64,000 nt of DNA, taken from NCBI GenBank assembly GCA_951406725.2, contig OX597814.1, forward strand, positions 32,054,001-32,118,000. The letters are read 5' to 3'. The notes below the pieces were generated by a model. It ran no database searches. It saw only the letters and a list, made by a program, of their open reading frames with translations, and was not told where the DNA came from. The DNA is from Octopus vulgaris (lineage: Eukaryota). Both the position numbers and the translations under genes were made by a program. Positions 7,463 through 60,045 of this stretch are shown here, one piece after another (the stretch's first letter is position 1; each line of letters starts with the position of its first letter).

Positions 7463-7866
7463 TCTATATATAAAACTGAAATGCGTTTTTACCGCTTGGT
7501 CCGATTCGCTCCAAAATTTACACGGACATGTAGAATGAGGTGACGATGCGCGTGGGCTACCTTAGAAATCCCTATCTTAAAAGCTGTGGTTTCTAGGGGC
7601 CATCTTCCTACCTCACCCTATTTCCTCCAGTACTCTGTCACTCCTCTTCATTTATAACTTTCAGAATGCCACTACGGTTATTTAAAGTATCTGTCACTAT
7701 CGCTATTTCCTTTCTTTTTCACTGACTCTGTTTCCTACCTTCCTATCACTTCGACGGCGTTCTTTGAAGTGTATGTCTGTCACCAACAATCAACACACGA
7801 GCATGAGAACAAATATTATGAATCAGATATTCTTGCGTTCATTTATATATGTGTGTGTGTGTGTGT

Positions 7867-8115
7867 TCTATATATATATGTATATATAATGTATGTGTGT
7901 GTGTGTTCTATATATAAATATGTATATATAATGTATGTGTGTGTGTGTGTTCTATATATAAATATGTATATATAATGTATGTGCGTGTGTGTGTTCTATA
8001 TATAAATATGTATATATAATGTATGTGTGTGTGTGTGTGTTCTATATATAAATATGTATATATAATGTATGTGTGTGTGTGTGTTCTATATATAAATATG
8101 TATATATAATGTATA
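7867..8115 (+). repeat. ~44-bp minisatellite (TCTATATATAAATATGTATATATAATGTAT(GT)n), ~6 copies; second array at 11061-11325
   Basis: Directly visible tandem units in both Helitron copies. Confidence 0.9.
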
Positions 8116-8263
8116 TATACAAAGTGTAAATATCTGTATTTATGTATATTAAACTTTTTCATACTTTTTCATAGTTATATATATTTTTAAACAAATTATA
8201 AATATAATTTCATAATTTTTATTTTCAATTTAAATAATTTAAAGTTTTCAATTTTATATTTTA

Positions 8264-8740
8264 CTAGCAGTATCGCCCGGGGTTGCTCGGGTTTGTAAGG
8301 GAAATAACTATATAAGCATTTTTAGCGAGTTATAGCAAAAAATGCATTAAAGATAGAATAAAAAATGATAGTAATTTCTTTTTTAAATCGTTGACTCATC
8401 GTAGACATTTTTACAGAGTTACTTCCCTTATATAATAGCGAAAAATGCATTAAAATGGAATAAAAAAATGATGGTAATTTTTTTTTTAATCGTTGACTCA
8501 TCGTAAACATTTTTAGAGAGTTACTTCCCTTATATAATAGCGAAAAATGCATTAAAATGGAATAAAAAATGATGGTCAATTTTTTTTAAATCGTAGACTC
8601 ATCGTAGACCCAGAAGGGCTCGATATGAATCACGACTATAAGATACCCGGTTTTGGTTACATTGCACCGCAAAATGTGGGAGTAGTTAGGAATCTAAATC
8701 GTAGGAGACAGACACACAACCTTACTTCTATATATAAAGA
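8264..8740 (-). mobile_element. Nested short Helitron (family B) with ~100-bp internal tandem repeats
   Basis: On the minus strand: 5' A|TCTTTATATATA at 8740, and 3' hairpin CCCGAGCAACCCCGGG then GCTAG|T at 8264. A second 5' terminus TCTATATATATAAAA lies at 9255. Confidence 0.75.
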
Positions 8741-10261
8741 TTTGTGCAACAACTAAAACATTCGGTTGTGCAAATTGTTTGCACAGGAAACCTGCCCTGT
8801 GTGGCGGTTTTTGCCGTTTTTGTGGATCTGTTTCAGCTTTTTTAGCGATTTCTGTTTTGGCGACTTCAAGCCATGAAGTCGTTGTTCTAAAAGAACGCTG
8901 GTCTCCTTCACAACGCATTACGACGTTGATTTCCTTACACTCCCTTCCCCACAGCTTCACGAGGGAGGGAAGAAGGGGAGAAGCAACACAGGTGCAGGCG
9001 TGAGCGTGGACGCCAACTCCGCCGCCATCGACACACGAAAAAATATGCATTAAAATGGAATAAAAAATTATGTTAAATTATTTTTAAAATCGTACACTCA
9101 TCGTAGACGTGCGATAATACCCAGACGGGCTCGATATGAATCACGACTATAAGATACCCGAATTTGGTTAAACTGCACCGCAAAATTTGGGAGTAGTTAG
9201 GAATCTAAATCGAAGGGGACAGACACTCACACAACTACAGTTTTATATATATAGATATATTTTCTATGTTATATTTTCTTTTTTTATGTTTTTGTTTTTG
9301 GTTTTTCACTGTTTGATTTGCCTATTAGTGGTTTTATCTCTAATTTAATTTATACAGATATATATCTCATTTGTATACATTTGTATATATAATGCGTGCA
9401 CACACACACACACGCACACACACATATATATATATACACATATATATATGTGTGCATTACGTAGTCGGTCGATTCACCTGAAAATATGCACACCTATGTT
9501 AAAGGTGCTGACAAGTTTGCATCACAACTATTTTGTTCCTCAAATGAAAGGCGTCACCTCTAGGACAAAATTCCTCATCTTATAAAATGTGGCCCCAGTA
9601 GACCCGAATGAAATCGGGTTATATTAACCAAAATGTGAAAAGGGGTCTAAATGGGGCTGGAAGGGGATTAAAATTTCAAAGAGCGGGTGTTTAGGAATTC
9701 TCTGTTGCATCAAGCTAAAAAATTTGCGCCAGCCTTTTAATCGTCAATGTGTTGCCGTCCATGATAAAGAAGTTTTGAATGCTTGCCATGGTGAGTCTAC
9801 TGTCGTGAGAAAGAATCACTTCAAAAATTGGTGTTTACGAATTTTCTTTTACATCAAGTTCTAAATTTTACGCCAGCCGTTAAACTGTCACTACGTTGCT
9901 GTCCGTCGTTAACAAATGCCAGCCATGGTGACTCTACTATCCTCAGATTCTATCCCTTCAAACTTTGGTTTCCAATATTTTATTATTTTTATTCAGCTCG
10001 CAAGTTCGTCTGTCCCTTTTAAATGTTAGCGTTTTGCTGTCTGCCTTGAAGCAGACATTTCCATTGCCACTGCCTCATATTTCTGATTGATCTTTCTAAA
10101 TATTTTATTTCTCAACTTACTCAAGATCTTCTGTTGTTTATAAATGGGAGAGAGAGAGATAAAGATAGAGAGTAAGAGAAAGCGAAGGAGAGTCAGAGAG
10201 AAAAGAAAAGTAAGAGAGTGGGAAAGTGAGAGAGAAAGGAGAGAGAAACAAATACGGAGAA

Positions 10262-10572
10262 TCATCATCATCATCATCGTTTAACGTCCGTTTTCCGTGC
10301 TAGCACGGGTTGGGCAGTGTGACCGGGGTCTCGGAAGCCAGGAGGCTGCACCAGGCTCCAGTCTGATCTGGCAGTGTTTCTACAGGTGGATGACCTTCCT
10401 AACGCCAACCACACTGTGAGTGTAGTGAGTGCTTTTTTCGTGCCGACGGCACTGGTGCTAGGGGGGCTCGCAGTGGCAACGATCGGTTGGTGCTTTTTAC
10501 GTGCCACCAGCACAGAAGCAAGTCAAGGCGGTGCTGCAATCGGCCACGTTCGGATGGTGCTTTTTACGTGCT
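10262..10572 (-). mobile_element. SINE family C 3' part with (GAT)n tail, carried inside the Helitron; second copy 13589-13899
   Basis: Minus strand has repeated ggcacgtaaaaagcacc motifs, then ggttggcgttaggaaggtcatcc (resembles the V-SINE domain), ending ggacgttaaac(gat)n. Confidence 0.7.
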
Positions 10573-10639
10573 GAAAGGAAGCAACAGAAAGTAACACCCA
10601 CACTCTTACCCGCGTGTAGAGCGGGTCACCTTCAGCTAG

Positions 10640-12727
10640 TCTATATATAAAACTGAATTGCGTTTTTACCGCTTAGATCGTTTTCAATGCCACTACATCC
10701 CGTCCGATTCGATCCAAAATTTACAGGGACATGTAGAATGAGATGACGATGCGCGTGGGCTACCTTAGAAATCCCTATCTTAAAAGGTGTGGTTGCTAGG
10801 GGCCATCTTCCTCACTCACCCTATTTCCTCCTTTCCCTCTCTTACTCCTCTTCATAACTTTCAGAAGTCCACTACGGTTATTTAAAGTCACTATCGCTAT
10901 TTCCTTTCTTTTTCACTGACTCTGTTTCCTACCTTCCTATCACTTCGGCGACGTTCTTTTAAGTATATGTCTGTCACCAACAAACGACACACGAGCATGA
11001 GAACAAATATTATGAATCAGATATTCTTGCGTTCATTTATATGTGTGTGTGTGTGTGTGTTCTATATATAAATATGTATATATAATGTATGTGTGTGTGT
11101 GTGTGTTCTATATATAAATATGTATATATAATGTATGTGTGTGTGTGTGTGTATTCTATATATAAATATGTATATATAATGTATGTGTGTGTGTGTGTGT
11201 TCTATATATAAATATGTATATATAATGTATGTGTGTGTGTGTTCTATATATAAATATGTATATATAATGTATGTGTGTGTGTGTGTGTGTTCTATATATA
11301 AATATGTATATATAATGTATATATACAAAGTGTATATATCTGTATTTATGTATATTAAAATTTTTCATACTTTTTCATAGTTATATATATTTTTAAACAA
11401 ATTATAAATATAATTTAATAATTTATATTTTCAATTTAAATAATTTAAAGTTTTCAATTTTATATTTTACTAGCAGTATCGCCCGGCGTTGCTCGGGTTT
11501 GTAAGGGAAATAACTATATAAGCATTTTTAGTGAGTTATAGCAAAAAAAATAGCAAAAAATGCATTAAAAATGGAATAAAAAATGATAGTAATTTTTTTT
11601 TTAAATTGTTAACTCATCGTAGACATTTTTAGAGAGTTACTTCCCTTATATAATAGCGAAAAATGCATTAAAATGGAATAAAAAATGATGGTAATTTTTT
11701 TTAATCGTTGACTCATCGTAGACATTTTTAGAGAGTTACTTCCCTTATATAATAGCGAAAAATGCATTAAAATGGAATAAAAAATGATGGTAATTTTGTT
11801 TTAATCGTTGACTCATCGTAGACATTTTTAGAGAGTTACTTCCCTTATATAATAGCAAAAAATGCATTAAAATGGAATAAAAAATGATGGTAAATTTTTT
11901 TTTCAATCGTAGACTCATCGTAGACGCGCGCTAATACCCAGAAGGGCTCGATATGAATCACGACTATAAGATACCCGGTTTTGGTTACACTGCACCGCAA
12001 AATGTGGGAGTGGTTAGGAATCTAAATCGTAGGAGACAGACACACAACCTTACTTTTATATATAAAGACTAGCAGTATCGCCCGGCGTTGCTCGGGTTTC
12101 TAAGGGAAATAACTATATATGCATTTTTAGAGAGTTATAGCAAAAAAATTCATTAAAAATGGAATAAAAAGTGATGGTAATTTTTTTTTTTAAATCGTTG
12201 ACTCAGTGTCTTCAAGCCATGAAGTCGTTGTTCTAAAAGAACGCTGGTCTCCTTGACAACGCTTTACGACGTTGATTTCCTTACACTCCCTTCCCCACAG
12301 CTTCACGAGGGAGAAGCAAACAGGTGCAGATGTGAGCGTGGAGCCAACTCCGCCGCCATCGACACACGAAAAATTTTGCATTAAAATGGAATAAAAAATG
12401 ATGTTAAATTATTTTTAAAATCGTACACTCATCGTAGACGCGCGCTAATAATCAGACGGGCTCGATATGAATCACGACTATAAGATACCTGAATTTGGTT
12501 AAACTGCACCGCAAAATTTGGGAGTAGTTAGGAATCTAAATCGAAGGGGACAGACACTCACACAACTACAGTTTTATATATATAGATATATTTTCTATGT
12601 TATATTTTCTTTTTTTATGTTTTTGTTTTTGGTTTTTCACTGTTTGATTTGCCTATTAGTGGTTTTATCTCTAATTTAATTTATACAGATATATATCTCA
12701 TTTGTATACATTTGTATATATAATGCG

Positions 12728-12767
<40 letters not shown>

Positions 12768-13965
12768 CACATATATATATGTGTGCATTACGTAGTCGGT
12801 CGATTCAGCTGAAAATATGCACACCTATGTTAAAGGTGCTGACAAGTTTCCATGACAACTATTTTGTTCCTCAAATGAAAGGTGTCACCTCTAGGACAAA
12901 ATTCCTCATCTTATAAAATGTGGCCCCAGTAGACCCGAATGAAATCGGGTTATATTAACCAAAATGTGAAAAGGGGTCTAAATGGGGCTGGAAGGGGATT
13001 AAAATTTCTAGGAGTGGGTGTTTAGGAATTCTCTGTTGCATCAAGCTAAAAATTTGCGCCAGCCTTTTAATCGTCAATGTGTTGCCGTCCATGATGAAGT
13101 TTTGAATGCTTGCCATGGTGAGTCTACTGTCGTGAGAAAGAATCACTTCAAAACTTGGTGTTTACGAATTTTCTTTTACATCAAGTTCTAAATTTTACGC
13201 CAGCCGTTAAACTGTCACTACGTTGCTGTCCGTCGTTAACAAATGCCAGGCATGGTAACTCTACTATCCTCAGATTCTATCCCTTCAAACTTTGGTTTCC
13301 AATATTTTATTATTTTTATTCAGCTCGCAAGTTCGTCTGTCCCTTTTAAATGTTAGCGTTTTGCTGTCTGCCTTGAAGCAGAACTTTCCATTGCCACTGC
13401 CTCATATTTCTGATTGATCTTTCTAAATATTTTATTTCTTAACTTACTCAAGATCTTCTGTTGTTTATAAATGTGAGAGAGAGAGATAAAGATAGAGAGT
13501 AAGAGAAAGCGAGGAAGAGTCCGAGAGAAAAGAAAAGTAAGAGAGTAGGAAAGTGAGAGAGAAAGGAGAGAGAAACAAATACGGAGAATCATCATCATCA
13601 TCATCGTTTAACGTCCGTTTTCCGTGCTAGCACGGGTTGGGCAGTGTGACCGGGGTCTCGGAAGCCAGGAGGCTGCACCAGGCTCCAGTCTGATCTGGCA
13701 GTGTTTCTACAGGTGTATGACCTTCCTAACGCCAACCACTCTGTGAGTGTAGTGAGTGCTTCTTTCGTGCCGCCGGCACTGGTGCCAGGAGGGCTCGCAG
13801 TGGCAACGATCGGTTGGTGCTTTTTACGTGCCACCGGCACAGAAGCAAGTCAAGGCGGTGCTGCAATCGGCCACGTTCGGATGGTGCTTTTTACGTGCTG
13901 AAAGGAAGCAACAGAAAGTAACACCCACACTCTTACCCGCGCGTAGAGCGGGTCACCTTCAGCTA

Positions 13966-13966
<1 letters not shown>
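10640..13966 (+). mobile_element. Non-autonomous Helitron, tandem unit 2
   Basis: Begins TCTATATATAAAA directly after the CTAG of unit 1. Ends with the same hairpin plus CTAG (13963-13966) followed by T. Collinear and highly similar to unit 1. Confidence 0.85.
11470..12586 (-). mobile_element. Nested Helitron family B, head-to-tail pair (11470-12068 and 12069-12586)
   Basis: Two hairpin+CTAG ends (11470, 12069) and two TC starts (12068, 12586). The junction reads CTAG|TC on the minus strand. Confidence 0.78.
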
Positions 13967-14058
<92 letters not shown>

Positions 14059-14285: not shown

Positions 14286-16366
14286 ATAGCAAAGAATTTA
14301 CACTACACAGAGCATCGGATTTTGAGATTAGGACAAAATTACTATTACAGATTCGTCCACGAATATCTAATATGATGTTGTTGCTTAAAATTTACATATT
14401 TAATCTACTTTCGAAAAGAGTTGATGTATTACAAATGCTTCAGTCAACAACTTTTGAATCACTAGGTAAAAGAAATATTCTTTTCGGTGTATAGATCTCT
14501 CACCACTCTTACAACGACTTGGTCCACCAGTATCTACTTTCGTTCATTTAATTAATCCTTTTGCTGTAGGGATGTGGCTCTCTTTGAAATTCTATGTCAA
14601 ACACGTAATATTTAGCTGACATTCAAAATTAGTAGTTTCAAATTTTGGCACAAGGCCAACAGTTTGACAGGAGGGGTAGGTCTATTACATCGATCCCAGT
14701 TGGCACCCTCAAATGGCATCGGTCCCAGTTAGATCCGCCAAATGGTATTTATTTTATAGACTCCGAAATAATAAAATGCAAAGCTGACCTCGGTGGCATT
14801 TTTCCCTGCGCGGTAAAATTTCTGCCATCTTGCTGCGCTTAGATTACAATTTAATTTTAAAGGCATCATATTTATCAGTCCATCAGAGCCCTTAAGTTCA
14901 TGAATACCGGAAACCCAAATTGAACGATAAAATATACATGTCAATGGGCAAAATGTTGGGTTTAAATCTGGAATAAAATGGACGTAGTTCGACAGATACA
15001 TGCTGTAATCTAAAAAGTTTAACTGATTGACATATGTGATTGACATGTGAGACAAACAAATAGAATTTACTGAAAATGAAGGGATTACCGACAAAGCTGC
15101 TTGGTAAGCTTACCACTAGGAGAATAGACTCAATCTATTCCCCTAATAGTTTTCTTGGAATTTAGTTACTTTACTAAAAACGGTCATCAAAATAGTCATA
15201 GTCATAGTCATGGCCTTCTAAGATATTTATGTTCATTTTATTAACTTGAATTATCCATCTACATATTCGCTAATTTATTTCACAAAACTCGAATGTTTAA
15301 AATTTCCGATTTATTGAAATTTCATCTCAGCAGGAAAAGCAAACAAATTATTGTTCCTAACAAGTGTAATATATTCATCTTCAGAACTATTCACAGATAT
15401 TTCAATTCTACAAGGATTCCGTAAACAAACTATTTTTAATAATATCAAATCATTGAAATTAATGATTGTTAATGGGTTTTGATGGGTTTAGACATGATTT
15501 GATCCCTAATCATTTGTATCATACAATCGAAAGTAATCTATTCGTACATTTACATATAATCATACATATACATACATAGTCACACATACACATCTACAAT
15601 GTATATAGGTGTATGTGGGTGTCTGTGTATTTGTGTGTGTGTGTGTGTAGCGCGCGTGTGAGAGAGTATTTTGGGGGACCAGTGCAAAAAACGTAGCAGT
15701 TACAACCAAAATTCTTTGAATTATATTTATTGTCAGCCTGCAGAAAAGTACCATCCATTATTGAACAATATTCCTGAGGTATGTATGGAGGCTTGTTTTG
15801 CGAACCTCTGTATAATATCACTGTTAATTCAAGGTTATTACACGATAACAGTAACTCAGTAATTTTATCCATCTATTTTTCTCGATCGATCCATTCATCC
15901 ATCCATCCATAATGCATACATACACACATACATATATACTTACATATACATATACATACATTTATTTATCTATCTATCTAGCTAGCTAGCTAGCTATGTA
16001 TCTATCTATGCGTCCGTCTGTCTGTGGTGTCTGTATGTAAAGAAGTGTTTTACTATTGAAAGTTGAAGATTAAATAAATCTGGTAAGCTTTGTTTTATTG
16101 GAGAAAGATAGGGAGAAAGGGAGAGAGAGAGAGAGAGCAAGAGAGAGAGAGAGAGAGAGAGAGAATAGCAGGATTAAAGAAAATCCTTGATATAGTAATA
16201 GATTATTTGCTAGACAGAGCTTTAGTAAAACTTGCAATGAGTTGATGTAAGGTTTCCTTTACGTAGTAAGCTGACACCTATACTGTGACAGGCTGGTTTT
16301 CATTTTATCTACGAATTTCTGAATTGTTGCTTCTCTTACATATAATGGATATGCGAAAGTGCCTAC

Positions 16367-19303: not shown

Positions 19304-19835
19304 AGGTGGCGAGTTGGCCGGATCGTTAGCAAGCCGGGGCAAATGCTTAGCAGTATTTCGTCCGTCTAGACGTTCTGAGATCAATTTCCACTGTGGTCGA
19401 CTTCGCCTCTCATTCTTTCGGAGTCGATAAAATAAGTACCAGTTTAGTAGTTGGGTCGATGTCATAAACTTACCCCTCCCTGAAATCGTTATTATTGTTG
19501 TTGTTGTTGTTGTTGTTCTGGCACTTTATATTCTGAGTTCAAATCACCACGATGTTGACATTGCCTTTCATCATTTTCGTGGGGTCGATGAAATAAGTAT
19601 AAGTTAAGGATTGGAGTCGATATAATCGACTAGCGCCTCCCAACAAATTTCAGGCCGTGTTACTATAGTACAAAGTAAGGCTGCGTGCTGGTAGGATTGT
19701 TAGCACGTTGGGAAAATGCTTAGCGGCATTTCGTTCGTCTTACGTTCAGCTGAGGTCGACTTTGCCTTTCAGTCGATTTTGCTTTTCATAAGAACCAGTT
19801 GAGCACTAAGGTCAATGTAATCGATATACGCACTT
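19304..19835 (+). mobile_element. Cluster of three decayed family B (Meta-domain-like) SINEs
   Basis: Repeated ggtcgactttgcctttcatc...ggtcgataaaataagtacc cores with ggcg(a)gctggcagaatcgttagc-like heads. Confidence 0.75.
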
Positions 19836-19927
19836 TCACGCCTTGCACCTACCGTAGAATTACTATTATTATTTGTGGCGAAAGAAGTTGTTCCGTGGAC
19901 GAAGCTGAAAGGCATGAGGACTGATAT

Positions 19928-20152
19928 ACTCTTTTTCTCTCTTACACTTTTACTTGTTTCAGTCATTTTGACTGCGGCCATGCTGGAGCACCACCTTTAG
20001 TCGAGCAAATCGACCCCGGGACTTATTCTTTGTAAGTCCATTACTTATTCTATCGGTCTCTTTTGCCGAACCGCTAAGTGACCGGGACGTAAACACACCA
20101 GCATCGGTTGTCAAGCAATGCTAGGGGGACAAGCACAGACACACAAACACAC

Positions 20153-20183
<31 letters not shown>

Positions 20184-20354
20184 CATATATACGACAGGCT
20201 TCTTTCAGTTTCCGTCTACCAAATCCACTCACAAGGCTTTGGTCGGCCCGAGGCTATAGTAGAAGACACTTGCCCAAAGTGTCACGCAGTGGGACTGAAC
20301 CCGGAACCATGTGGTTGGTAGACAGGCTACTTACCACACAGCCACTCCTGCGCC
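19928..20354 (-). mobile_element. SINE family A (full length)
   Basis: Reverse complement of the 3953-4379 copy. Confidence 0.92.
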
Positions 20355-20364
20355 CTATATATAT

Positions 20365-20830
20365 ACTTCTTTGGTAGAGCTCTCATTGATTTTTTTAAAG
20401 TTTCACTTGTAAAGGAAATTGAGATTGGAAAAGGAAGTGCTGTCGAGTGAGTTCATTGAAAGATGGGTGAAAGTTGCGAAAATGGCAAGAGTGGATGGTA
20501 TCCCTCTAAGTGTAAACCTGTGAGCGGGAGAGAAAGAATTGGAGAGGGCACTTGCTCCTGGCTTTCAGAGAAATCTCGGATAGTGGGGTTCATCGATTAT
20601 CCCTAGAGGCCTTCCTGTATCAAGAGATCCACTTCTCCATCACTCTCCCCGCCACTTCTTTAACGTTTGTATGCTTTTGTATACTTCTTTTTTAACGTTT
20701 GCCTCTTCTTTTTCGGTAATACATTCTATTTTCTTTTTTCTTATTTCATTATATGTAACCCCCACACTTTATAACTGTCTTGTATTGCCCTCTCATCTTT
20801 CGCCCTTGTGGCAAATAAATGAAATCATTA
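20365..20830 (+). mobile_element. 5'-truncated Tx1/L1-clade LINE 3' end
   Basis: Reads KFHL*RKLRLEKEVLSSEFIERWVKVAKMARVDGIPLSVNL*, like the Tx1 ORF2 C-terminus (R..LE.E.....F.ERW). Pyrimidine-rich 3' UTR ends gcccttgtggcaaataaatgaaat then (ATT)n. Confidence 0.6.
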
Positions 20831-22829
20831 TTATTATAAATATTTTTTATTATTATGCCCATTATTTTAACTAGCATTATTACTATAGATGGTGAGTTGT
20901 AATTATTTAAATTGTTTAAACGTATATTTTCTCAAGTGTAGACATATTAGAGCCTGTTGCTGACTTGTGTTTCTGAGAGTAAATTTAGAAGTGAAAATTT
21001 GACACATTTCTTTCACACAACGGCCACATCTATTATCACATATTCCATACGATTTTGCCTTATTATTCCCAACCAATAGAATATACTTTGTCACTATCTT
21101 TTAGTGCCTAAATTAATTTACTAAGGCTAGTAGTGTTCATCTTGTCCCTATATCTAAACGAATTTTAATGACTGACATTTCTTCTGATTGACAAGTATTT
21201 GTGTTGTTGCGAGTGTAGTAATTGCCAAGGAGCATTTTTCAACTTTCTGTGCCCCAATCTAGTCATCTTTGTAGCCAGATCCTGATAATTTTTACTTGTC
21301 TCAATTTCCTTGATATACACTCTACTTTCATATGGGAAAAATAAAACTAAACAATTCATCTGCTATGTGCTGCGACTAGTTGGTAATTTCTAAAGCAATA
21401 TTAGATATGTATTAGGCTGCAAAGTTTCCCTTCTTATTTATTTTAAGTGTTAAGCCCTTCCGTATGACCACTGTACTTCCTTTTCTCATACATACTGGTG
21501 ATTCATTTTCAGAAGATTCAGAAAAACAGAGGATTATAGGTTGAGCGTGTTTCTGTGAAATTTTTTATCCTAAATCTCTGAAAATTCAAGTACAGAGATT
21601 TTCCAAATTAATATATTTTAATAATCCTTTTCATTTCTGCTTCCGTAATATTCACATATTAAGGACTGTTCCGAGAGGCTCTCATGACACTATTTATTCC
21701 TAAGTTTGCTGTCGTCGTTCCAGACAAAGCAAAATTGAAGTCAATTATTGAACAACTCTTTTCAAAATGAGAATTCAAATCTATTGATGTTTCTTTTCCT
21801 TATATTTTTTTAAGAGACTGAAGGTTAGTCAATCCGCCGCATGGTTCTGTTAGATCTAATGGAATAGGTGTTGCACAGCGGAGGATGACACGTGAGAATC
21901 ACCCTGGAACAGTTACTCCGACTCACTGAACTTGCACCTACAGGTAGCAGCAGCCTGACCATTGCCACAGACTGACCACTGTCTTACCAGATTTTCTTTT
22001 CTTTTAAACTTCAAAAGAAGTTCACTTCACTTAACTGAGCAAAAGTTATTTTCTGCTTCTGCGTTTGTTATATCATCCAAGTGATCATCATCCTCATTGT
22101 TCCCTTGTTGGTAACGTTTTCTTTCATTATTTCTGCTGAGCCAGTTTCGTGAATATTGTTTTATTCGTCGTTGGTATCTTGATGTGTTTTCTTTAGTTTT
22201 CCCGATAGTGGATCAATTTATCATTTTATCTCCTTCTTAGCTGGTTGTCAACTTCTACGTTTGATACGGTACTTTATTTGAGCTTTTCCTTTCTTTCCTT
22301 TCACTGTCTTCTCTTCAGTTAAACATTTATCCTTCCGAGATCGAAATGGCTTATTGCTGTTGAAAATAACGAGATATCTAGTGAATATTTAATCCCAAGA
22401 CAAGGAATTGCAAAGCAAATGATGCCCTTCAGTATTTACCACGTATTAAATTCTACATTTCTTTGTGTCAAGCATAAATCTTCATTTAAACATAGACGTA
22501 GGAGAAATGTCAAAGTAAACGATTTAATTCATATACTTCTACAAGGAAGAGAGATTCCAAATTGGAACTAACTTCACATATTATAGCATTTAAGAATAAG
22601 TACATTATCATAACAACTTCATGTAACTTCTTAAATGATGACAAATTTTGAAACCTGTCGGAAAATGAAATACATTTAATTAGAAATATATTAGTTAATA
22701 AGCAATTGACATCACTAACATGGATTTCTCTCAGTAAACTTTAATACAACTGTACTCCAAACAGATTGAGATCACCAATACAGATCGTAATCTTCCCAGG
22801 AACTTATCAAATGGATATCTGCATGAATA

Positions 22830-24296: not shown

Positions 24297-24679
24297 GATG
24301 GTGACCTGGCAGAGACGTTAGCATGCCGGGTGAAATGCTTAGCGATATATTCGTCTGTTTTCACCTTCTGAGTTCAAATTCCGCCGAGGTGGACTTTGCC
24401 TTTCATCCTTTCGGGGTCGATAAATTAAGTACCAGTTACGCACTGGGGTCGATGTAATCAACTTGATCCGTTTGTCCTCTCTGTGCTTAGTCCCTTGTGG
24501 GTAGTAAAGAAATAAGTATTTCGTCTGTCGTCACGTTCTGAGTTCAAATTCCGCCGAGGTCGACTTTGCTTTCATCCTTCCGTGGTCGATAAATTAGGTG
24601 CCAATTGCGTACTTGGGTCGATCTAATCGATTGGCCCCCTCCCGCCAAAATGTCGTGCCTTGTGCCTAGAGTAGAAAAG
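24297..24679 (+). mobile_element. Dimeric SINE family B (Meta-domain-like), two cores with different tails
   Basis: Two ttctgagttcaaattccgccgaggt(g/c)gactttgc cores. TSD-like aatattgatacatgac (24277-24292) / aatattgttatatgac (24680-24695). Confidence 0.85.
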
Positions 24680-27400: not shown

Positions 27401-28345
27401 CTGTGCGTCATTTGCTCGCGGCTATTTAATCACTGATTTGCGTTAAGATATCAAAAGAAATCCATGGGTATTTTTTCATTCAGTATTGTATGAAAATACA
27501 TGAAGTCTCCTACTACTTTTGTTTTTCATCTTTTCCCATCTGCTTTGTATTATATTGCATTTTGTAATGAGGCCTTATTCGTAAGTGCATTGTTCGCCAG
27601 CAGGATTATTCTAATTATCACATTGGTCATACGAATTTTGCATTAGTCATTTGCTTGCATGGTGTTTTCCTCGTTGGAGTATTTTGAGTTCATGCATTGT
27701 TACTGGACGCCAGGATTCCAGTCTTACTTTCTGATTTTTTTTGTTGTTGTTTCTGAGACAAGGCTTGTGTTATAATCGTTTATTATGTCTTTCGATTATT
27801 TCTTGTATCATATCATTTTTTTTATCATGGATGTTTCCTATTGCTTATTTGTTTCTGTAGTAATCATATTTCATATCTTAATATACAACTATAATATCTT
27901 CGATATTACAGTTGTATATTCTAATAACGTTACAATCATACATTGTAAACTTATGGACCAATAATAACCACATTTCGTGCCGAAGAGAAGCATTTTTTGT
28001 TAATTTAAATGTGGTAGTTTAGCCAACTCTAACTGAAAATATTATACAAATAGAAGATGGTTTACGTACAAGTATTCAGCTTCATGAAACAAATTAAGCA
28101 AGAATTACTGTTAATAAAGGTTGATTACTCAATAAATTAGAACATTTAGTAAAAACACGAAATATGCGTAAAACTTAAATACCATAAAGTTTATGAATCT
28201 AATCAACATGCAAATTAATAAATCTACTTGAAATCAGAACCATAAATAAAATAATCACACACAATACTAGAAATAACATTAGAAAGTCAACAAAATATCA
28301 GCAATGCAATAAGATTGATGTAGGCATTAGTTAGTCTCGTAAGAA

Positions 28346-29155
28346 GGCGGTGAGCTGGCAGAATAGTTCGCATGGCGGGCGAAATGCTTAGCGGTATTTC
28401 GTATGCCGTTACGTTCTGAGTTCAAATTCTGCCTAGGTCGACTTTGCCTTTCATCCTTTCGGGGTCGATAAAATTAAGTACCAGTTACGCACTGGACTCG
28501 ATGTAATCGACTTAATCCGTTAGTCTGTCCTTGTTTGTCCCCTCTGTGTTTAGCCCCTTGTGGGTAGTAAAGAAATAGGTATTTCGTATGCCGTTACGTT
28601 CTGAGTTCAAATTCCGCCTAGGTCGACTTTGCCTTTCATCCTTCCGGGGTCGATTAAATAAGTACCAGTTACACACTGGTGTCGATATAATCGACTTTAA
28701 ACCGTTTGTCTGTCCTTATTTGTTCTCTCTGTGTTTAATCCCTTGTGGGTAGTAAAGAAATAGGTATTTCGTCTGCCGTTACGTTCTGAGTTCAAATTCC
28801 GCCGAGGTCGACTTTGCCTTCCACCCTTTCGGGGTCGATAAATTAAGTACCAGTTACATACTGGGGTCGATGTAATCGACTTTTACCCTTTGTCTGTCCT
28901 TGTTTGTCCCCTCTGTGTTTAGCCCCTTGTGGGGAAATGCTTAGTGTGTCGCTTCATTCTTAGTTCGAATTCCGCCGAAGTTGACTTTGCCTTTCATCCT
29001 TTTGGGGTCGATAAATTAATTACAAATGCTGGGGTCGATGTAATCAACTATGCACCTCCCAACAAATTCCAGGCCTTAGTCGTATAATAGAACGAATGAT
29101 TTAGTTCAGTAAGACGGCGGCGTGCTGGCAGAATCGTTAGCACGCCGGGCAAAAT
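28346..29155 (+). mobile_element. Tandem array of SINE family B units (~184-bp period, 4 cores) plus an extra head fragment
   Basis: gtatttcgt(a/c)tgccgttacgttctgagttcaaattc recurs at ~28394, ~28579 and ~28763. A fourth core lies at ~28960 and a lone head at 29117-29155. Confidence 0.9.
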
Positions 29156-29249
29156 GAAACCATTATTTAGTTTAGTAAGAACTGTAGGAAAAACTTTTAA
29201 TATACCCACTCTTGGTTATCATACTCTCTTTTTCACACAGATGTAATTA

Positions 29250-29912: not shown

Positions 29913-30285
29913 TATACATACATACATACATACATACATACATACATACATACATACATACATACATACACGCATGAATGCATAGGTAGTATGAGGAAAA
30001 ATATCCTTCAGGTTAGAAAAAAATATGTTTGTGACATATTTTAACTTCTGAAGGCAATTTCACTGCGGTCACTGTAGAGAAGAGATTCTCGCTTGGGGTA
30101 CGCGCCTAGGAGTCCTCTCGGACAAGACACGAAGATATAGTTTTTTACAAATTTTAAACATAACTGAGAAATTTTACCTCACAGGAGCTGCAGAGCATTT
30201 GCCTTTAGAAGTTAAAATATATCACAAGCTTATTTTAGTTAGACTAAAGTTCGTTTATTCCTCCTTACTGCTTAGCAATGATACT

Positions 30286-30670
30286 GGAAGCACTCCGTCG
30301 GTTACGACGATGAGGGTTCCGGTTGATCCGAATCAACGGAACAGCCTGCTCGTGAAATTAACGTGTAAGTGGCTGAGCACGCCACAGACACGTGCACCCT
30401 TAACGTAGTTCTCGGGGATATTCAGCGTGACACAGAGAGTGACAAGGCCGACCCCTTGAAATACAGGTACAACAGAAACAGGAAGTAAGAGTGAGAGAAA
30501 GTTGTGGTGAAAGAGTACAGCAGGGATCACCACCATCCCCTGCTGGAGCCTCGTGGAGCTTTTAGGTGTTTTCGCTCAATAAACACTCACAACGCCCGGT
30601 CTGGGAATCGAAACCGCGATCCTACGACCGTGAGTCCGCTGCCCTAACCACTGGGCCATTGCGCCTCCAC
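30286..30670 (-). mobile_element. tRNA-derived SINE family D (full length)
   Basis: Head ggaggcgcaatggcccagtggttagggcagcggactcacggtcgtaggatcgcggtttcgattccc. Perfect 12-bp TSD agcaatgatact (30274-30285 / 30671-30682). Confidence 0.93.
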
Positions 30671-30799
30671 AGCAATGATACTACTGTATTACTGTATCTA
30701 ATGCGAACAAGCGGTCCGCCCGCTCAACCAGTCACTGTTTTAGAAGGTATTCAATAGACAGTTTTAGAATGTATCAAGTGATTATATCTTCATTGTCTG

Positions 30800-31030
30800 T
30801 TTCTTTATTACCCACAAGGGGCTAAACATAGAGGGGACAAACAAGGACAGGCAAACGGATTAAGTCGATTACACCGACCCCAGTGCGTAACTGGTACTTA
30901 ATTTATCGACCCCGAAAGGATGAAAGGCAAAGTTGACCTCGGCGGAATTTGAACTCAGAACATAACGGCATACGAAATACAGCTACGCATTTTGCCCAGT
31001 GTTCTAACGGTTCTGCCAGCTCGCCGCCTT
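30800..31030 (-). mobile_element. SINE family B (monomer)
   Basis: Reverse complement of head + Meta-like core + ...ttagccccttgtgggtaataaagaaa tail. Confidence 0.9.
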
Positions 31031-34746: not shown

Positions 34747-34783
34747 GGCGTAAGAATGGCTGTGTGGTAAGTAGCTTCTTACC

Positions 34784-36932
34784 GAACGGACGCGTTTTTT
34801 TTTTCGCTCCGGCAAATGTCACGTTTTAACTTGAATCGTTGAACTTTTGACTCGACTACAGGTAGGCGTTTTGTATTTTTGGGAGCTTAGTGAAGTCTAT
34901 TACTTGCATTTAATGTTTTTTAGCATTTAATATTTTTTAGCAGATAATAAACTCCACTTTGCTCCAGGTATAATTTTTCTGCCTGTTGTCGAGTGTAAAG
35001 ACTCACTTTGCAGTCAGAATTGTATTTTTAAAGCGGCGTAGTCCGTCTGCAAAAATTGTTTTTGAAATTGTCTTTGTGTTATCCACGTGAATTACCAAGG
35101 AGTACCAAGGATTATTTTATCAATGTGTTTTACCAACTGTGCATTTGGCCTGGAATACAATTTTTTGGCCGAAAAAAGTGAAAACAAAAAAAAAAGAAAA
35201 AATTTATTCCTTTGTCTGGATTTGAACTCTCTTTCTCCGTCTATCATTTATTTTTTTTAAAAAGAACTTTTTTGAACTGCTATTTCTAATTTTATTTCTT
35301 CCCTTCTGTTGTATTTTTCATTCTCCTTTCTGTGTCTTATTTTATTTTATCACATTTTGAACTGTTTTTAAATCTTACGTTATGGCAAAGAAATTCACTG
35401 TGTGGGATTTGACACCTCCCAAAAAATATTTGAATGAGCTCGAGGAAAAGACCGTGGTGCTGAGGACATATTCGAAGTCGCTCGACACCATAGCAGTCTT
35501 TCCAAAGGCCACTATTGTTAACGAGCTGGCAGACTACATGCCAGCCGTTAAATATATCGCACGGGGAGTTAAATACGCAACGGTTTGGTTGCTATTTAAC
35601 TCCCCTAAAGCAGCTTGCGAATTTTCAAGCCAGCCCATTGAGGGCAAACAAATATTGTTCCTCCCAAATTACAAGGGAGAAAAATTGTTGAGAGCTTGGA
35701 TCTGCGGCTTACCACCAGGCGTTGAGCCCGAGTGGATAGAGGACTCTATCCGCCGGGGCTTGGATGGTAGCAGTTCCAAGCTACTGAACGTAAAAGTACA
35801 GCCTGCGGCTGATTGGGAGGGGTCAAGAGCTGTTTTGACCCTATGGACCCAGTCAGCCAAAAGTCTGGTTTTACCGGACTTTTTGAGGATGGCCGGGTAC
35901 AGGTATCCAGTGATGCTTGAGGGACGCCCCCCCCAAGTGTCACCTGTGCCTGGAGCCTGGATATATCAAGAGGAAGTGTCCCGGTGGCCGTGGTGCTGCC
36001 CCGGAGCATGAAAAGGAAAAGGTGCCCGCTGCCCCCTCATTGGAGGGGGAGACGGTGGAAGTCGTGGAGGAGGTTGCCTCCACGAAAAGAAAAAGACAGG
36101 TGAGCAACAATGGTTGCTCACCAAAGAACGTACAGACGGAGGAGGAGGATAGCGACCCCCCGTGTCTGCCGAAGGAGCCCCCCGGGCTAGCAGCCTCTAA
36201 AAAAAAAAGAGGAAAAAAAAAAGAAAAAGAGGTCGGACGGCTGACGTTTCTGTGTCGCCGACGGAGCCGCGGGTGGGACGTGTGCCACCCGCGGACAGTG
36301 CTCCGTCAGTGGAAAGTGTGCCACTGACGGATCAGTGTGAGGTCCCTTCCTGTGAAGAGGAGTTGTTTCTCCTCCTTTACCACAAGGGAGGGAAGGTGGA
36401 AAAGTTTTTGAATGGCTTGGGTGACCGAGAACGCAAGGACACGGTCAGCTCAAGGAGTCCGTTATGGCCTCCGTGGGTAGCTGCGGAGGTAGTAACGGAA
36501 AACATTTTGTCAAGGGTCACAAAGACCTTTGAGAGGAAACATTTTACTTTTCTCTTTGCAGGCCTCGACTTGTCGTCGCAGAGTTGTCTGCAGGCGGCAA
36601 GACAATTTGCTTCGGGGACCTGACAGGGAGAATTTTTGTTATTTCATATACTGCCCTTGTGGCAAAAGAAATGAAAAAAAGAACTTTGTAAGAGGTTTTA
36701 GTGCCTCCTTCGTGTAAGAGGTTTGCAACCTCATGTCGATTTATTGAAACTAAAGAAAAAAGAAAATTGAACTTATTAAAAAAAGAACAATATCTTAGAG
36801 AAGCGGAAGTCGGCTGGCGCTTTTTGACTTCTCCCATCACCATCTTCATCCACCACCACCATCATCCATTACTGTCTTTGTCCAGCCCGTAGCTACTCTG
36901 TGTACTGCCCTAGTGGCAAAATCGTTGAAATA
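34784..36932 (+). mobile_element. ~2.15-kb non-autonomous ORF1-only (HAL1-like) L1/Tx1-type retroelement
   Basis: 15-16-bp TSD aagtagctt-cttacc (34769-34783) / aagtagcttgtttacc (36933-36948). ~600-bp 5' UTR, single gag-like ORF, ~310-bp 3' UTR ending gccctagtggcaaaatcgttgaaataaa. No RT or endonuclease seen. Confidence 0.8.
35382..36623 (+). CDS. LINE ORF1/gag-like nucleic-acid-binding protein (~413 aa if two homopolymer indels are corrected): putative RRM-like N-terminal region, zinc knuckle, acidic/basic tail
   Basis: ORFs 35382-36011, 35917-36327 and 36252-36623 join via a C8 run (35927-35934) and A10 runs (36199-36222). The first and last ORFs share a frame. EGRPPKCHLCLEPGYIKRKCP = Cx2Cx4(H>Y)x4C knuckle preceded by the typical 'GxP' motif. 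Confidence 0.75.
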
Positions 36933-37325
36933 AAGTAGCTTGTTTACCAGCCACATGGTTCCGGGTTCAGTCCCACTGCGTGGGATCTTTGACAAGTGTC
37001 TTCTACTATAGCCTCGGGCCGATCAAAGCCTTGTGAGTGGATTTGGTAGATAGAAACTGAAAGAAGCCCATCGTATATATGTACAGATATGTATGTATGT
37101 GTATATGTTAGTCTGTCTGTGTTTGTCTCCCCAACATCGCTTGACAACCGATGCTGGTGTGTTTACGTCTCCGTAACTTAGCGGTTCGGTAAATGAGACC
37201 GATAGAATAAGTACTAGGCTTACAAAGAATAAGTCCTAGGGTCGATTTTCTCGACTAAAGGCGGTGCTCTAGCATAGCCACAGTCAAAGGACTGAAACAA
37301 GTAAAAGAGTAAAAAAGAGTAAAAA

Positions 37326-37744
37326 GAAAAACTGTAACTCCTCCGTCCTTGACTGGTCAAAAAAGAGGGCCAATTATTCTTGATGACAATGCTCGACCAA
37401 ACGTTTCACTAATGACGCTCCAGAAGTTGAGGTTACTCAGCTACGAAGTTCTCCTCCACTCACCTTATTCACCAGACCTTTCTCCTACCAACTATCAATT
37501 TTTCAAGTACCTTGATTGTTTTTGCGAGAGGAGTTCAAAAATCAAACCGATGCTGAAACTGTGTTCAAAGAGATCCAGAACTCCAGATTTTTATGTTACC
37601 AGAATAGACAAACATGTCACTCGTTGGCAAAATTGTGTTGATTGTAATGGTACTTATTTGATGAATAAAATTTCAGCATTGCTGAAATATACTGCGATGA
37701 AGTTTACGTTTCAAAACGTTGCTTACTTTTTACTCAAACTCGTA
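37326..37744 (+). pseudogene. Hsmar1-like mariner transposase, 3' piece and right TIR
   Basis: GPIILDDNARP...YEVLLHSPYSPDLSPTNYQFFKYLD...RWQNCVDCNGTY. The end gcttactttttactcaaactcgTA resembles a mariner TIR. Confidence 0.88.
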
Positions 37745-42560: not shown

Positions 42561-42947
42561 CAACCTGGGAACCGATGCTCCAGCCTCACGTTTGGTCTGT
42601 CTTTACATTCCAGAGAGGTCGACTTTGAATTCATCCTTTAGGTGGGGTCGATAAAATAAGTACCAATCGAGTACTGATGTTGATGTCATCGACTTACCTC
42701 TTCCTCGAACTGCTGTTCTTGTGCCAAGAATCTGAAACCAATACGTTTGTACATATATACATGTGTGTGTGTATTTGTGTGTAAGTGTGTGTGTGCAAAA
42801 ACACATCACACACATACATTACTACATACATGGGGAAATATTTATCCTTATATGCTTCTATCCAAGCTTTTTCCTGTGCGTGAGAAAGAGAGAAAGAGAG
42901 AGGCAGAGAGACAGAGAGAGAGAAAGAAAGAAAGAAAGAAAGAAGGA

Positions 42948-42986
<39 letters not shown>

Positions 42987-43937
42987 GAAGAAAGAAAGAA
43001 AGAAAGAAAGAAAATTGTATGTGTGTGCTGGTGTGTTAATGTGCTTCAATCCATTCACTTCATTACCGACTGATCCGCCTACGGTGAAGACATTTTGTTT
43101 GAGAAAAGAAAATGTCTTAAAGAAATACCTTTGACTGCTTTCGCTAAAATTTCGCCTCTGCTTCGAGCGATAGCTGACTGGCTGTACTGAAGCAAATTTA
43201 GAAAACATTAGATGAACTAGAATGGTGTGGAGAGAAATGGAGTGGTATGGTGAGAAACTGGCTGTATGTTTAATCATAATTTATATGGAGACTTGGGAAT
43301 AAATGGCAGTTAATTGATCGGGAAGAATCGCTTGCTTTTGATGTGGAAATTTATTTTCGTCGTTGTGTTTTGTTTCGATTTCTTTTTTTTTTTTGCGTGT
43401 GTGCTAACGTTATATCTTCTCATTGATTGACTTGATTAAATTCGTATAAGGAAATGGTTCTAAAAACTATCAAGGCATCTTGTGTAAATTTAGCCGGTCT
43501 TCTTAATGTTAGTTACAGGCACAATCCGTCCGAATGAAAGACGAAAATGTTGCTAATATAATACGAAGTCAGAAAGCAGTGGAGTGAATAAAAGAGAAAA
43601 TTGCACTACTAAATATGTTTCGTTGTTTAGCGACATCCCTTCGCATCGTGAATTGAATGAACTTCGGCTGCAATCGATTTCGTCTATTCAATTTAAATAA
43701 CATGATGATTTGTGTGTCGTTATAAACAAAGAACTTTCATACTGTAATTCCACAGTTCTGCAACTTTACCAAACATAATAAATGATCATTGCATCGGTAC
43801 TTACAGAATTATCATTCTCATACAAGGCTTGGATAGCCATTCTACACACCCGTACGTAGACTGTATTGGCATTTTGTACGACTAAAAATTTTAGCTAAAT
43901 TCAATCTTATAATCTTTAATCTTGTTATATACTTTTT

Positions 43938-44314: not shown

Positions 44315-44454
44315 TTATATAATTTTATTAAATATGCCCTCGCACTCTGATTTGTACTCAGAATGGTTTATGATATTTTTTTCAATAATTTTTCCTAGTT
44401 AATTCTCTTTGTATATGTATGTGTGTGTGTGTGTGTGTGTATTACTTACGAAAG

Positions 44455-46146: not shown

Positions 46147-46372
46147 TATTACTTTTGTTTATTTCTTTATTGCCCACAAGGTGCTAGACATAGAGGGGAC
46201 AAACAAGGACAGATAAAGGGATTAAGTTGATTACATCGACCCCAGTGCGTAACTGGTACTTAATTTATTGACCACAAAAGGATGAAAGGCAAAGTCGACC
46301 TCGGCGGAATTTGAACTCAGAATGTAACGGCAGACGAAATACCGCTAAGCATTTCTGCCAGCTCGCCGCCTT
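46147..46372 (-). mobile_element. SINE family B (monomer)
   Basis: Consensus match. TSD atatttgatact at 46135-46146 / 46373-46384. Confidence 0.9.
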
Positions 46373-54530: not shown

Positions 54531-54767
54531 ATATATACACATATCTACGCCGAGTCTCAAGCAATTAATTCCCCAATATTTTCACATATAAACGTATATC
54601 ATACATTCATACAGTCTATCTCGCACACGCTCAATCCCCAGCTCTCAATGTGTTACTGGCGCACATAAAATCTGTAACATCTTCTGTTTCACTCGGCAAA
54701 ATATTTCAAATTCCATTAACAACTGATTGTAAAAAATACTTTTAATCATCTACGTACGTACGTCCAC

Positions 54768-59792: not shown

Positions 59793-59829
59793 GATGAGGA
59801 GAAGAAGAAGAAGAAGAAGAAGAAGAAGA

Positions 59830-60045
59830 ATCCTTTCTACTATAGGCGCAAGACCTGGAGTTTTTTGACCGGGAAGCTAGTCGATTACGTCAATCTCAGT
59901 GATCAACAGTACTTCATTTCAGCGACCACAAAAGGATGAAATGCAAAGTCGACCTCGGTGGAATTTGAATTCAGAACGTAAAGACGGACAAAATGCCACT
60001 AAGTATTTTTCCGGCGTGCTAACGACTCTGCCAGCTCGTCACCTA
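59830..60045 (-). mobile_element. Decayed SINE family B (second tail type)
   Basis: Reverse complement of head and Meta-like core, with tail ...cttgcgcctatagtagaaagga. Confidence 0.75.

What the first reader, a model, noticed from the sequence alone, without database searches (positions are those of the whole stretch)
20775..20825. Shared 3' terminus links a Tx1-like LINE, the ORF1-only element and a Meta-domain SINE family
Seen: the Tx1-like fragment ends actgtcttgtattgccctctcatctttcgcccttgtggcaaataaatgaaat. SINE B tail-1 ends tgtccttgtttgtcccctctgtgtttagccccttgtgggtagtaaagaaata (e.g. ~28525-28577; gcaataaagaaat variant at 46160 rc). The ORF1-only element ends actgtctttgtcc...ctctgtgtactgccctagtggcaaaa...gaaataaa. 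Known: SINEs share 3' tails with their partner LINEs, but L1-clade partners usually need only poly(A). Inference: a three-member system with stringent 3'-end recognition by a Tx1-clade RT.
Basis: partly seen in the sequence, partly recalled or inferred. Interest (0 to 1): 0.75.

Follow-up and report, generated by a model that had tools for sequence, protein, structure and literature searches.

The report
Shared 3' hairpin among retroelements
A broken L1/Tx1-type jumping gene, an element carrying only its first gene, and a family of short parasitic repeats in this window all end in the same small RNA hairpin with no poly(A) tail, which suggests that this enzyme type, usually thought to need only poly(A), here reads a specific end signal.

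Summary
The quoted ends are all present. LINE and SINE tail-1 align over about 50 nt (scores 47-58; 0 of 2000 shuffles, 0 of 4136 genomic windows). The ORF1-only end is a weaker match to the SINE (76 and 15 of 2000). The LINE fragment is longer than stated (19873-20822, split by another SINE). Its ORF2 C-terminus links to a 1152-aa endonuclease-RT-zf-RVT protein of the L1 clade; Tx1 versus other L1 lineages was not testable. New here: three SINE tail variants, the LINE and two ORF1-element ends share a 3-4 bp hairpin with a CUWGU loop. Its stem changes in compensating pairs (3 of 4 pairs), and 15 of 16 ends have no A-run over 4. 'Meta domain' is unsupported. TSDs (12-20 nt) fit but do not discriminate. 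Best reading: structure-specific 3'-end recognition by an L1/Tx1-type RT, inferred and not shown (0.55). It rests on one LINE copy and one ORF1-only copy. Known in plants and algae; ten literature searches found no animal case. New variant of a known kind.

The parts
19873..19930 (+). 5' piece of the 5'-truncated L1/Tx1-type LINE (ORF2 C-terminal codons)
   Evidence: tblastn to P0002 at 19854-19949, E 1.4e-4 within the window; score 59, 0 of 1000 shuffles. The first codons of that match lie in the flanking SINE tail and candidate TSD.
19931..20360 (-). SINE A copy inserted into the LINE, 7-nt TSD (19924-19930 / 20361-20367)
   Evidence: CORE-type 5' motif at 20263-20279
20361..20523 (+). LINE ORF2 C-terminal end, with a frameshift at the T-run near 20390 and an in-frame stop at 20410-20412; terminal stop 20521-20523
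   Evidence: 76% and 79% identical to P0002 and P0003; aligns to residues 1103-1147 of P0004, 0 of 1000 shuffles
20524..20822 (+). LINE 3' UTR, about 300 nt, pyrimidine-rich
20768..20825 (+). Shared 3' tail of the LINE; hairpin stem 20802-20804 / 20810-20812, loop 20805-20809
   Evidence: pair probability 0.93-0.97 for three pairs
20823..20837 (+). Candidate 15-nt TSD of the LINE (left copy 19858-19872), low-complexity ATT repeat
   Evidence: 13 of 15 identical; 2 of 38 swapped-flank nulls as good
19677..19872 (+). Degenerate SINE B (tail-2) whose ATT-repeat end hosts the LINE insertion
34784..36932 (+). ORF1-only element, about 2.15 kb, inserted in the head of a SINE A; TSD 34769-34783 / 36933-36948 (15/16 nt)
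   Evidence: 0 of 38 swapped-flank nulls; no ORF2 remnant; single copy in the window
35382..36623 (+). ORF1-like gene in three stop-free pieces, broken at a C-run (about 35926-35933) and an A-run (about 36198-36222); two RRM-like repeats, then a CX2CX4[Y]X4C knuckle
   Evidence: low-confidence model, pLDDT 41.9; ferredoxin-like fold matches with Z up to 6.9 for residues 97-183; no Pfam hit
36635..36680 (+). Internal tail copy in the ORF1-element 3' UTR (hairpin loop 36656-36660); closer to the LINE end than the terminal copy is
36871..36932 (+). Terminal tail of the ORF1-only element (hairpin loop 36910-36914)
   Evidence: not recovered by the SINE-trained model at E<=10
28345..29097 (+). SINE B array: three tail-1 units, then one tail-2 unit
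24297..24679 (+). SINE B dimer: tail-1 unit, then tail-2 unit; 16-nt TSD
   Evidence: 0 of 38 nulls
30797..31030 (-). SINE B tail-1 copy; degenerate 17-nt TSD candidate
   Evidence: 3 of 38 nulls
46160..46372 (-). SINE B tail-1 copy; TSD with 12 exact matches, extendable to 17-20 nt
   Evidence: 0 of 38 nulls
59829..60045 (-). SINE B tail-2 copy
19304..19676 (+). Two further degenerate SINE B units; the second has tail-2
42589..42741 (+). SINE B tail-3 copy
14632..14840 (-). SINE B tail-3 copy found by the hairpin scan and the model, not used in training

Best explanation
An L1-clade LINE lineage (probably Tx1-like) in this genome recognises its template by a short structured 3' end rather than by poly(A). 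The signal is a 3-4 bp hairpin with a CUWGU loop, about 10-20 nt from an A-rich end. SINE B families captured such ends by template switching at least two or three times (tails 1, 2, 3), and a 2.15-kb ORF1-only element carries the same signal. All borrow ORF2p in trans for target-primed reverse transcription, leaving 12-20 nt TSDs that usually start with A. Shown: tail homology, hairpin covariation, absence of poly(A), L1-clade C-terminus, TSDs, nesting order. Inferred: that ORF2p binds the hairpin, that this particular LINE family is the donor, and that the lineage is Tx1.
For: Tail homology LINE/tail-1: 0 of 2000 shuffles and 0 of 4136 windows. Hairpin on 14 ends: 82% of cells paired vs 57.7% shuffled, covariation 0.643 vs 0.253, 0 of 500 shuffles on both measures; slid controls 30-54% paired; 3 of 4 pairs change on both sides. 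RNAalifold predicts the same four pairs unprompted. A model built on 11 SINE tails only ranks, after its training set, a new SINE tail-3 copy (19.6 bits), the LINE end (17.4) and the ORF1 internal tail (16.3) as the top three hits in 64 kb. A hairpin descriptor gives 10 hits vs 0.46 in shuffles; all 10 are element tails, 9 at unit or element ends and 1 the internal ORF1 copy. The longest downstream A-run is 4 or less in 15 of 16 ends. Homolog P0004 has Exo_endo_phos, RVT_1 and zf-RVT, E 4e-75 to human L1 ORF2p vs 4e-19 to R2. The LINE stem differs from every tail-1 copy aligned at the third pair and matches the ORF1-element stems, so it is not a decayed SINE copy. Precedent: stringent L1 lineages in monocots with a variable stem and conserved loop (PMC3472496).
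Against: One LINE copy and one ORF1-only copy, so no family consensus and no proof that either end is the family's native end. The model's scores for the LINE and ORF1 internal ends are not significant alone (E 0.14 and 0.28), and the ORF1 terminal end was missed at E<=10. The descriptor was written after seeing the data. Two of five covariation measures did not beat shuffles (365 and 261 of 500), and the shuffle control ignores relatedness. No single tail folds better than shuffles (z +0.32 to -1.51, 7 of 7). Hairpin probability is below 0.3 in 4 of 10 ends tested, and drops to about 0.1 for the ORF1 terminal end in longer context. Tails 2 and 3 resemble the LINE end little outside the hairpin (270, 308 and 163 of 1000; one tail-3 copy 3 of 1000). 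TSD length does not discriminate, since SINE C also has 12-15 nt TSDs in 3 of 3 copies, and 3 of 9 SINE B loci gave no TSD. The clade call rests on about 70 C-terminal residues and one homolog at E 5e-6; the upstream piece did not match P0004 (214 of 1000).
Confidence: 0.55

Rival explanations
1. The tail was inherited from the LINE by template switching, but recognition is relaxed. The RT needs only an A-rich end, and the hairpin is kept for another reason such as 3' processing, a poly(A) signal context or RNA stability.
For: An AATAAA-like word follows the hairpin in the LINE and some tail-1 copies. Many SINE copies have weak or broken stems. Poly(A) could have decayed, as tail-1 units are only 86-93% identical. 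Tx1-mobilised SINEU have poly(A) and no shared 3' end was found for SINEU-1 (PMC4494074).
Against: No poly(A) in 15 of 16 ends, including those with well-kept TSDs. Stem covariation across four end types. Pol III SINEs have no obvious need of a Pol II 3'-processing signal (general knowledge).
Confidence: 0.25
2. The hairpin tail belongs to another LINE clade (for example RTE, CR1 or R4/Dong). The L1-type fragment and the ORF1-only element picked it up as chimeras, so the RT donor of SINE B is not L1/Tx1.
For: Single copies only. The ORF1 element has two tail copies, which shows that ends get shuffled. Known mollusc SINE partners are CR1, CR1-Zenon, L2 and Nimb (PMC11481361). An RRM plus knuckle ORF1 also occurs outside L1/Tx1 (recalled).
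Against: The tail follows the ORF2 stop after an ordinary 300-nt UTR and abuts the candidate TSD. The one other LINE-like 3' region compared lacks it. LINE and ORF1-element stems agree with each other and differ from the SINE stems.
Confidence: 0.13
3. Chance or convergence among pyrimidine-rich then A-rich ends.
For: The alignments are short and gapped. ORF1 end vs SINE is near noise. T-rich tracts give spurious matches in this window.
Against: 0 of 4136 genomic windows reach the LINE/tail-1 score. The match lies at the 3' terminus of every element. Control element ends do not match.
Confidence: 0.05

Closest known systems
Monocot stringent L1 pair LINE1-1_ZM / ZmSINE2, ZmSINE3; Chlamydomonas L1-1_CR / SINEX-3_CR (PMC3472496, PMC3747384)
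   Same: L1-clade LINE sharing about 50 nt of 3' end with SINEs; hairpin with variable, compensating stem and conserved loop (monocot pair).
   Different: Those are plants and algae; the monocot hairpin has other loop and flank motifs and folds at about -11 to -18 kcal/mol. Here: an animal, a 3-4 bp stem with a CUWGU loop, no poly(A), three SINE tail variants and an ORF1-only member.
Crocodilian SINEU / Tx1-Mar (PMC4494074)
   Same: SINE mobilised by a Tx1-type LINE; 16-nt TSD; serial insertions sandwiching a TSD.
   Different: That partnership was inferred from target preference. SINEU have poly(A) and snRNA heads, and no LINE sharing the SINEU-1 3' terminus was found. Here the link is a shared tail, and no fixed target is seen.
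HAL1, HeT-A, Ag-Sponge ORF1-only non-autonomous LINEs (as described in PMC5786205)
   Same: ORF1 only, no ORF2, TSD-flanked.
   Different: Type I-like ORF1 (RRM-like repeats plus knuckle), a structured tail present twice, and family status unshown (one copy).
Bivalve SINE/LINE pairs with CR1, CR1-Zenon, L2, Nimb (PMC11481361, PMC4824008)
   Same: 35-61 nt shared 3' ends at 72-95% identity; tail swapping on one SINE body.
   Different: No L1/Tx1 partner is among the four clades reported in the section read.
MetaSINEs (PMC4824008)
   Same: tRNA-like head followed by a central domain and variable tails.
   Different: The SINE B centre does not resemble the bivalve Meta consensus lines seen in the supplement beyond a few bases.

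Membership tests
L1 clade (incl. Tx1) LINE | ORF2 with APE endonuclease, RT and C-terminal zinc-binding region | tested here: met
   Met through homolog P0004; the window holds only the C-terminal piece, which aligns to P0004 1103-1147 (E 0.001)
L1 clade (incl. Tx1) LINE | RT closer to L1 than to other clades | tested here: inconclusive
   P0004 vs PDB: L1 ORF2p E 4e-75, R2 E 4e-19; no CR1, L2, RTE or Jockey RT appeared among the hits and no tree was built
Tx1 clade | Groups with Tx1 in an RT phylogeny | not testable with these tools
   No Tx1 reference protein could be fetched and the window has no RT; resemblance of the C-terminus to Tx1 is recalled
Tx1 clade | Target-sequence preference (many, not all, members) | tested here: inconclusive
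   Insertion sites differ (SINE A head, ATT repeat, unique DNA); candidate TSDs mostly begin with A; serial insertion at one site near 28325-29177
L1/Tx1-type insertion | TSD of roughly 7-20 nt | tested here: inconclusive
   LINE 15, ORF1 element 15/16; SINE B 16-20 at 5 of 9 loci, 14 low-complexity at 1, none at 3; SINE C also 12-15 at 3 of 3; SINE A 6-7 at 3 of 6, microsatellite at 1, none at 2
Stringent SINE/LINE pair | Shared 3'-terminal sequence | tested here: met
   for LINE/tail-1; weak for ORF1 end/SINE and for tails 2 and 3
Stringent SINE/LINE pair | Conserved stem-loop with compensatory changes | tested here: met
   small, marginally stable stem
Stringent SINE/LINE pair | 3' end required for retrotransposition | not testable with these tools
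   needs an assay
ORF1-only non-autonomous LINE (HAL1-like) | ORF1 present, ORF2 absent, own TSD | tested here: met
ORF1-only non-autonomous LINE (HAL1-like) | ORF1p homologous to a LINE ORF1 | tested here: inconclusive
   No Pfam hit, no homolog among longer proteins, Atlas hits under 0.9 incl. RRM_1 at 18% and DUF4780, Z up to 6.9 on a low-confidence model, knuckle with Tyr in place of His
ORF1-only non-autonomous LINE (HAL1-like) | Multi-copy family with the same structure | not testable with these tools
   single copy in the window; no eukaryotic genome collection on hand
MetaSINE | 66-bp Meta domain directly after the tRNA head | tested here: inconclusive
   Leans against: a 16-nt motif from the bivalve Meta consensus has no hit in SINE B at up to 3 mismatches (1 hit elsewhere, 0.81 expected), and by-eye comparison shows no extended likeness. 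The published domain consensus is a figure and was not seen.
CORE-SINE | Conserved 5' CORE motif | tested here: not met
   For SINE B: all 5 hits (0.64 expected) fall in SINE A copies, none in SINE B (CORE alignment seen)

The most novel reading that the evidence does not exclude
This genome (octopus by my recall of its SINEs) hosts a radiation of Tx1-type LINEs that have no poly(A) and read a CUWGU pentaloop hairpin whose stem sequence drifts between sub-lineages. One SINE body captured that end from different sub-lineages (tails 1-3), and an ORF1-only element rides the same signal. It would be an animal example of stringent 3'-end recognition in the L1/Tx1 clade, of which my searches found none, and would favour stringent recognition as ancestral for the clade.
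Probability: 0.35. Interest if true: 0.75.

Novelty: new variant of a known kind. Interest (0 to 1): 0.55.

Why it matters
[quoted passage not shown] An animal L1/Tx1 lineage with a minimal hairpin and natural compensatory variants gives a direct test of that question. It would also name a partner LINE for an abundant SINE family: SINEs cover 11.6% of the Octopus vulgaris genome and 13 L1-Tx1 families there are recently active (PMC13282606).

Tried and rejected
Word-index protein searches with the 43-aa C-terminus and the ORF1 piece found nothing; both covered only longer proteins. P0001 is a repeat protein, a chance hit, and was dropped. Scans of the bacterial/archaeal genome collection for stray relatives found none; tblastn of P0004 against phages found none. 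The cluster look-up for P0004 could not be made, so its source names are unknown. Rfam: the 150 of 171 matches shown were all microRNA models below their gathering scores. ARAGORN found no tRNA. An apparent extension of LINE/SINE likeness into the SINE body was marginal (9-262 of 1000) and is not claimed. Sense similarity between LINE and ORF1-element UTRs outside the tail was not significant (36 of 300). My recalled idea that the SINE B centre equals the Squam3 CORE fragment was wrong. A full-text search for a 21-nt SINE B word found no paper. SINEBase supplements were unavailable. The fold search gave no RRM-specific standout (best Z 6.9). The (ATT)n after the LINE end was first read as a LINE tail repeat and then reassigned to the target site. 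Metagenome and viral contig collections stayed unchecked.

Full report
Observation. On 61-nt ends, LINE vs three tail-1 copies scored 47, 58 and 53, above all 2000 dinucleotide shuffles and all 4136 genomic windows outside the tail loci. LINE vs the ORF1 terminal end scored 33 (3 of 2000). A second tail copy inside the ORF1 element's 3' UTR scored 41 (0 of 2000). The ORF1 terminal end vs SINE tail-1 scored only 25 and 29 (76 and 15 of 2000). Upstream of the hairpin, LINE/tail-1 likeness persists (11-22 of 2000) but that of the ORF1 end does not (152-309 of 2000). Ends of SINE A, SINE C and one other LINE-like region did not match the LINE end.

The LINE. A 36-residue piece found three proteins among 1.84 billion representatives. 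Two short unnamed ones (P0002, P0003) are 76-79% identical; the third is a chance repeat protein and was dropped. P0002 also matches 19854-19949, so the LINE continues on the far side of the SINE A at 19931-20360, which has a 7-nt TSD. A profile of P0002, P0003 and the window piece found one long protein among 1240 candidates, P0004 (1152 aa, E 5.2e-6). It has Exo_endo_phos, RVT_1 and zf-RVT domains and matches human L1 ORF2p at E 4e-75 against 4e-19 for R2. The window's last 43 codons align to its residues 1103-1147 (0 of 1000 shuffles), while the upstream piece does not (214 of 1000). The fragment is therefore L1-clade by homology. The Tx1 label is recalled and could not be tested. The fragment sits in the ATT-repeat end of a SINE B tail-2 copy, with a candidate 15-nt TSD (2 of 38 nulls).

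The ORF1-only element spans 34784-36932 inside a SINE A head, with a 15/16-nt TSD (0 of 38 nulls). Its ORF is in three stop-free pieces, broken at two homopolymer runs. A single-sequence model is poor (pLDDT 41.9) but shows two RRM-like strand-helix repeats, with ferredoxin-like matches up to Z 6.9 for the second. A CX2CX4[Y]X4C knuckle follows. This fits Type I ORF1p, RRM plus CCHC knuckle, which PMC5203782 links to the Tx1 clade in non-mammalian animals. Pfam and homolog searches were blank, and Atlas hits were under 0.9. A six-frame search with P0004 hit only the LINE piece, so there is no detectable ORF2 remnant. It is single-copy here.

The hairpin. SINE B occurs with three tails. Aligning 14 ends (LINE, two ORF1-element ends, five tail-1, five tail-2, one tail-3) puts a 5-nt CUWGU-type loop in register without gaps. 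One further tail-1 unit, cut short just after the hairpin, was not included. RNAalifold predicts four flanking pairs. 82.1% of 56 cells pair against 57.7% in shuffles, and covariation is 0.643 against 0.253 (0 of 500 each). Slid controls give 30-54%, and 3 of 4 pairs change on both sides. Two other measures did not beat shuffles (365 and 261 of 500), and the control ignores relatedness. A covariance model trained on the 11 SINE ends alone returned 25 hits at E<=10. After the 11 training ends came a new SINE B tail-3 copy, the LINE end (E 0.14) and the ORF1 internal end (E 0.28). The ORF1 terminal end was not among the 25. A post hoc descriptor gave 10 hits against 0.46 in shuffles; all are element tails, nine at unit or element ends and one the internal ORF1 copy. 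Thermodynamic support is thin: none of 7 tails folds better than shuffles. Pair probability is above 0.9 for the LINE, the ORF1 internal end and, in short context, the ORF1 terminal end and the new tail-3 copy, but below 0.3 in 4 of 10 ends. Poly(A) is absent: the longest downstream A-run is 4 or less in 15 of 16 ends.

Insertion signature. SINE B gave 16-20 nt TSD candidates at 5 of 9 loci, a low-complexity 14 nt at 1 and none at 3. The new tail-3 copy was not tested. SINE A gave 6-7 nt at 3 of 6 loci, but SINE C also gave 12-15 nt at 3 of 3. TSDs are thus compatible with an L1-type endonuclease but not diagnostic. Nesting gives an order: SINE B tail-2, then LINE, then SINE A at one locus; SINE A, then the ORF1-only element at another. 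Activity periods therefore overlap (inference). Tail-1 units are 86-93% identical.

SINE identity. A motif from the bivalve Meta consensus does not hit SINE B, and the consensus lines in the PMC4824008 supplement do not resemble its centre by eye. The CORE 5' motif hits SINE A only. The SINE B centre is unassigned. A likeness to the reptile Sauria SINE centre is recalled and untested. That the host is an octopus is also recalled from its repeats and comes from no call.

Mechanism. Most likely ORF2p binds the loop and stem near the RNA 3' end, nicks A-rich DNA and primes reverse transcription from the short A-rich terminus. SINE B and the ORF1-only element use the same signal in trans (0.55). 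Shown: homology, covariation, no poly(A), clade of the C-terminus. Inferred: binding, donor identity, Tx1. Rivals are relaxed recognition with a hairpin kept for another reason (0.25), a non-L1 donor with chimeric capture (0.13) and chance (0.05).

Comparison and novelty. Stringent L1 pairs are known in maize, sorghum and Chlamydomonas, the monocot ones with a variable stem and conserved loop (PMC3472496, first third of the text read; PMC3747384, passages and section 7). SINEU is tied to Tx1-Mar by target preference, has poly(A), and no shared 3' end was found for SINEU-1 (PMC4494074, passages and section 16). ORF1-only LINEs are known (PMC5786205, passages; the HAL1 paper itself not read). 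Bivalve SINE partners are CR1, CR1-Zenon, L2 and Nimb (PMC11481361, passages and section 13; PMC4824008, passages, sections 9-10, supplement parts 1 and 3 of 4; PMC4758252, passages). Octopus repeat surveys list L1-Tx1 and SINEs without such pairing in what I read (PMC13282606, first third and supplement hits; PMC8967140, passages). Also consulted: PMC3531059 (passages; supplement unavailable), PMC7983390 (passages, supplement 2), PMC13295347 and PMC5203782 (passages). Ten searches found no animal SINE sharing a 3' tail with an L1/Tx1 LINE. Repbase, Dfam, the 1994 octopus SINE paper, subscription journals, figures and unseen supplements were not covered and may hold it.

Verdict. Real feature, partly as described. 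New variant of a known kind. Interest 0.55, limited by single copies and an untested mechanism.

Noticed in passing
window 28345-29177, 24297-24679, 19304-19872: SINE B forms head-to-tail arrays (period 185, 2.9 copies). Internal units lack the first ~50 nt, units of tail-1 and tail-2 are mixed, and two separate loci share the same junction. This suggests template jumping or a multimeric master copy.
   Followed up: partly
window 28325-29177: Three copies of a 17-19 nt TSD-like word flank the array and a second, internally deleted SINE B; serial insertion at one site, as reported for SINEU-3.
   Followed up: partly
window 36739-36810 (minus) vs 20683-20754: An inverted T-rich match between the ORF1-element 3' UTR and the LINE 3' UTR (score 56; 0 of 300 shuffles, 0 of 576 genomic windows). 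It may be an inverted LINE UTR piece between the two tail copies, or low-complexity noise.
   Followed up: partly
window 7463-13976: Tandem segmental duplication with a period near 3.3 kb; pieces 96.7% and 90.6% identical.
   Followed up: no
window 30283-30669, 43937-44316, 54148-54534: A third SINE family (about 385 nt, tRNA-like head) with 12-15 nt TSDs and no hairpin tail; partner unknown.
   Followed up: partly
window 58192-59128 and 37313-37774: DNA transposon remnants: HTH_23 and DDE_3 hits in the first; the second looks mariner-like by recall, with no Pfam hit.
   Followed up: no
window 60689-60973 and 49371-49688: Degenerate frames resembling, by recall, the C-terminus of an R4/Dong-type LINE and a Penelope-type RT; no informative Pfam hit for the first, the second not scanned.
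   Followed up: no
SINE A copies, e.g. window 37200-37260: The 3' part of SINE A contains a stretch resembling the SINE B centre and following spacer (by eye), hinting at module sharing between the two SINEs.
   Followed up: no
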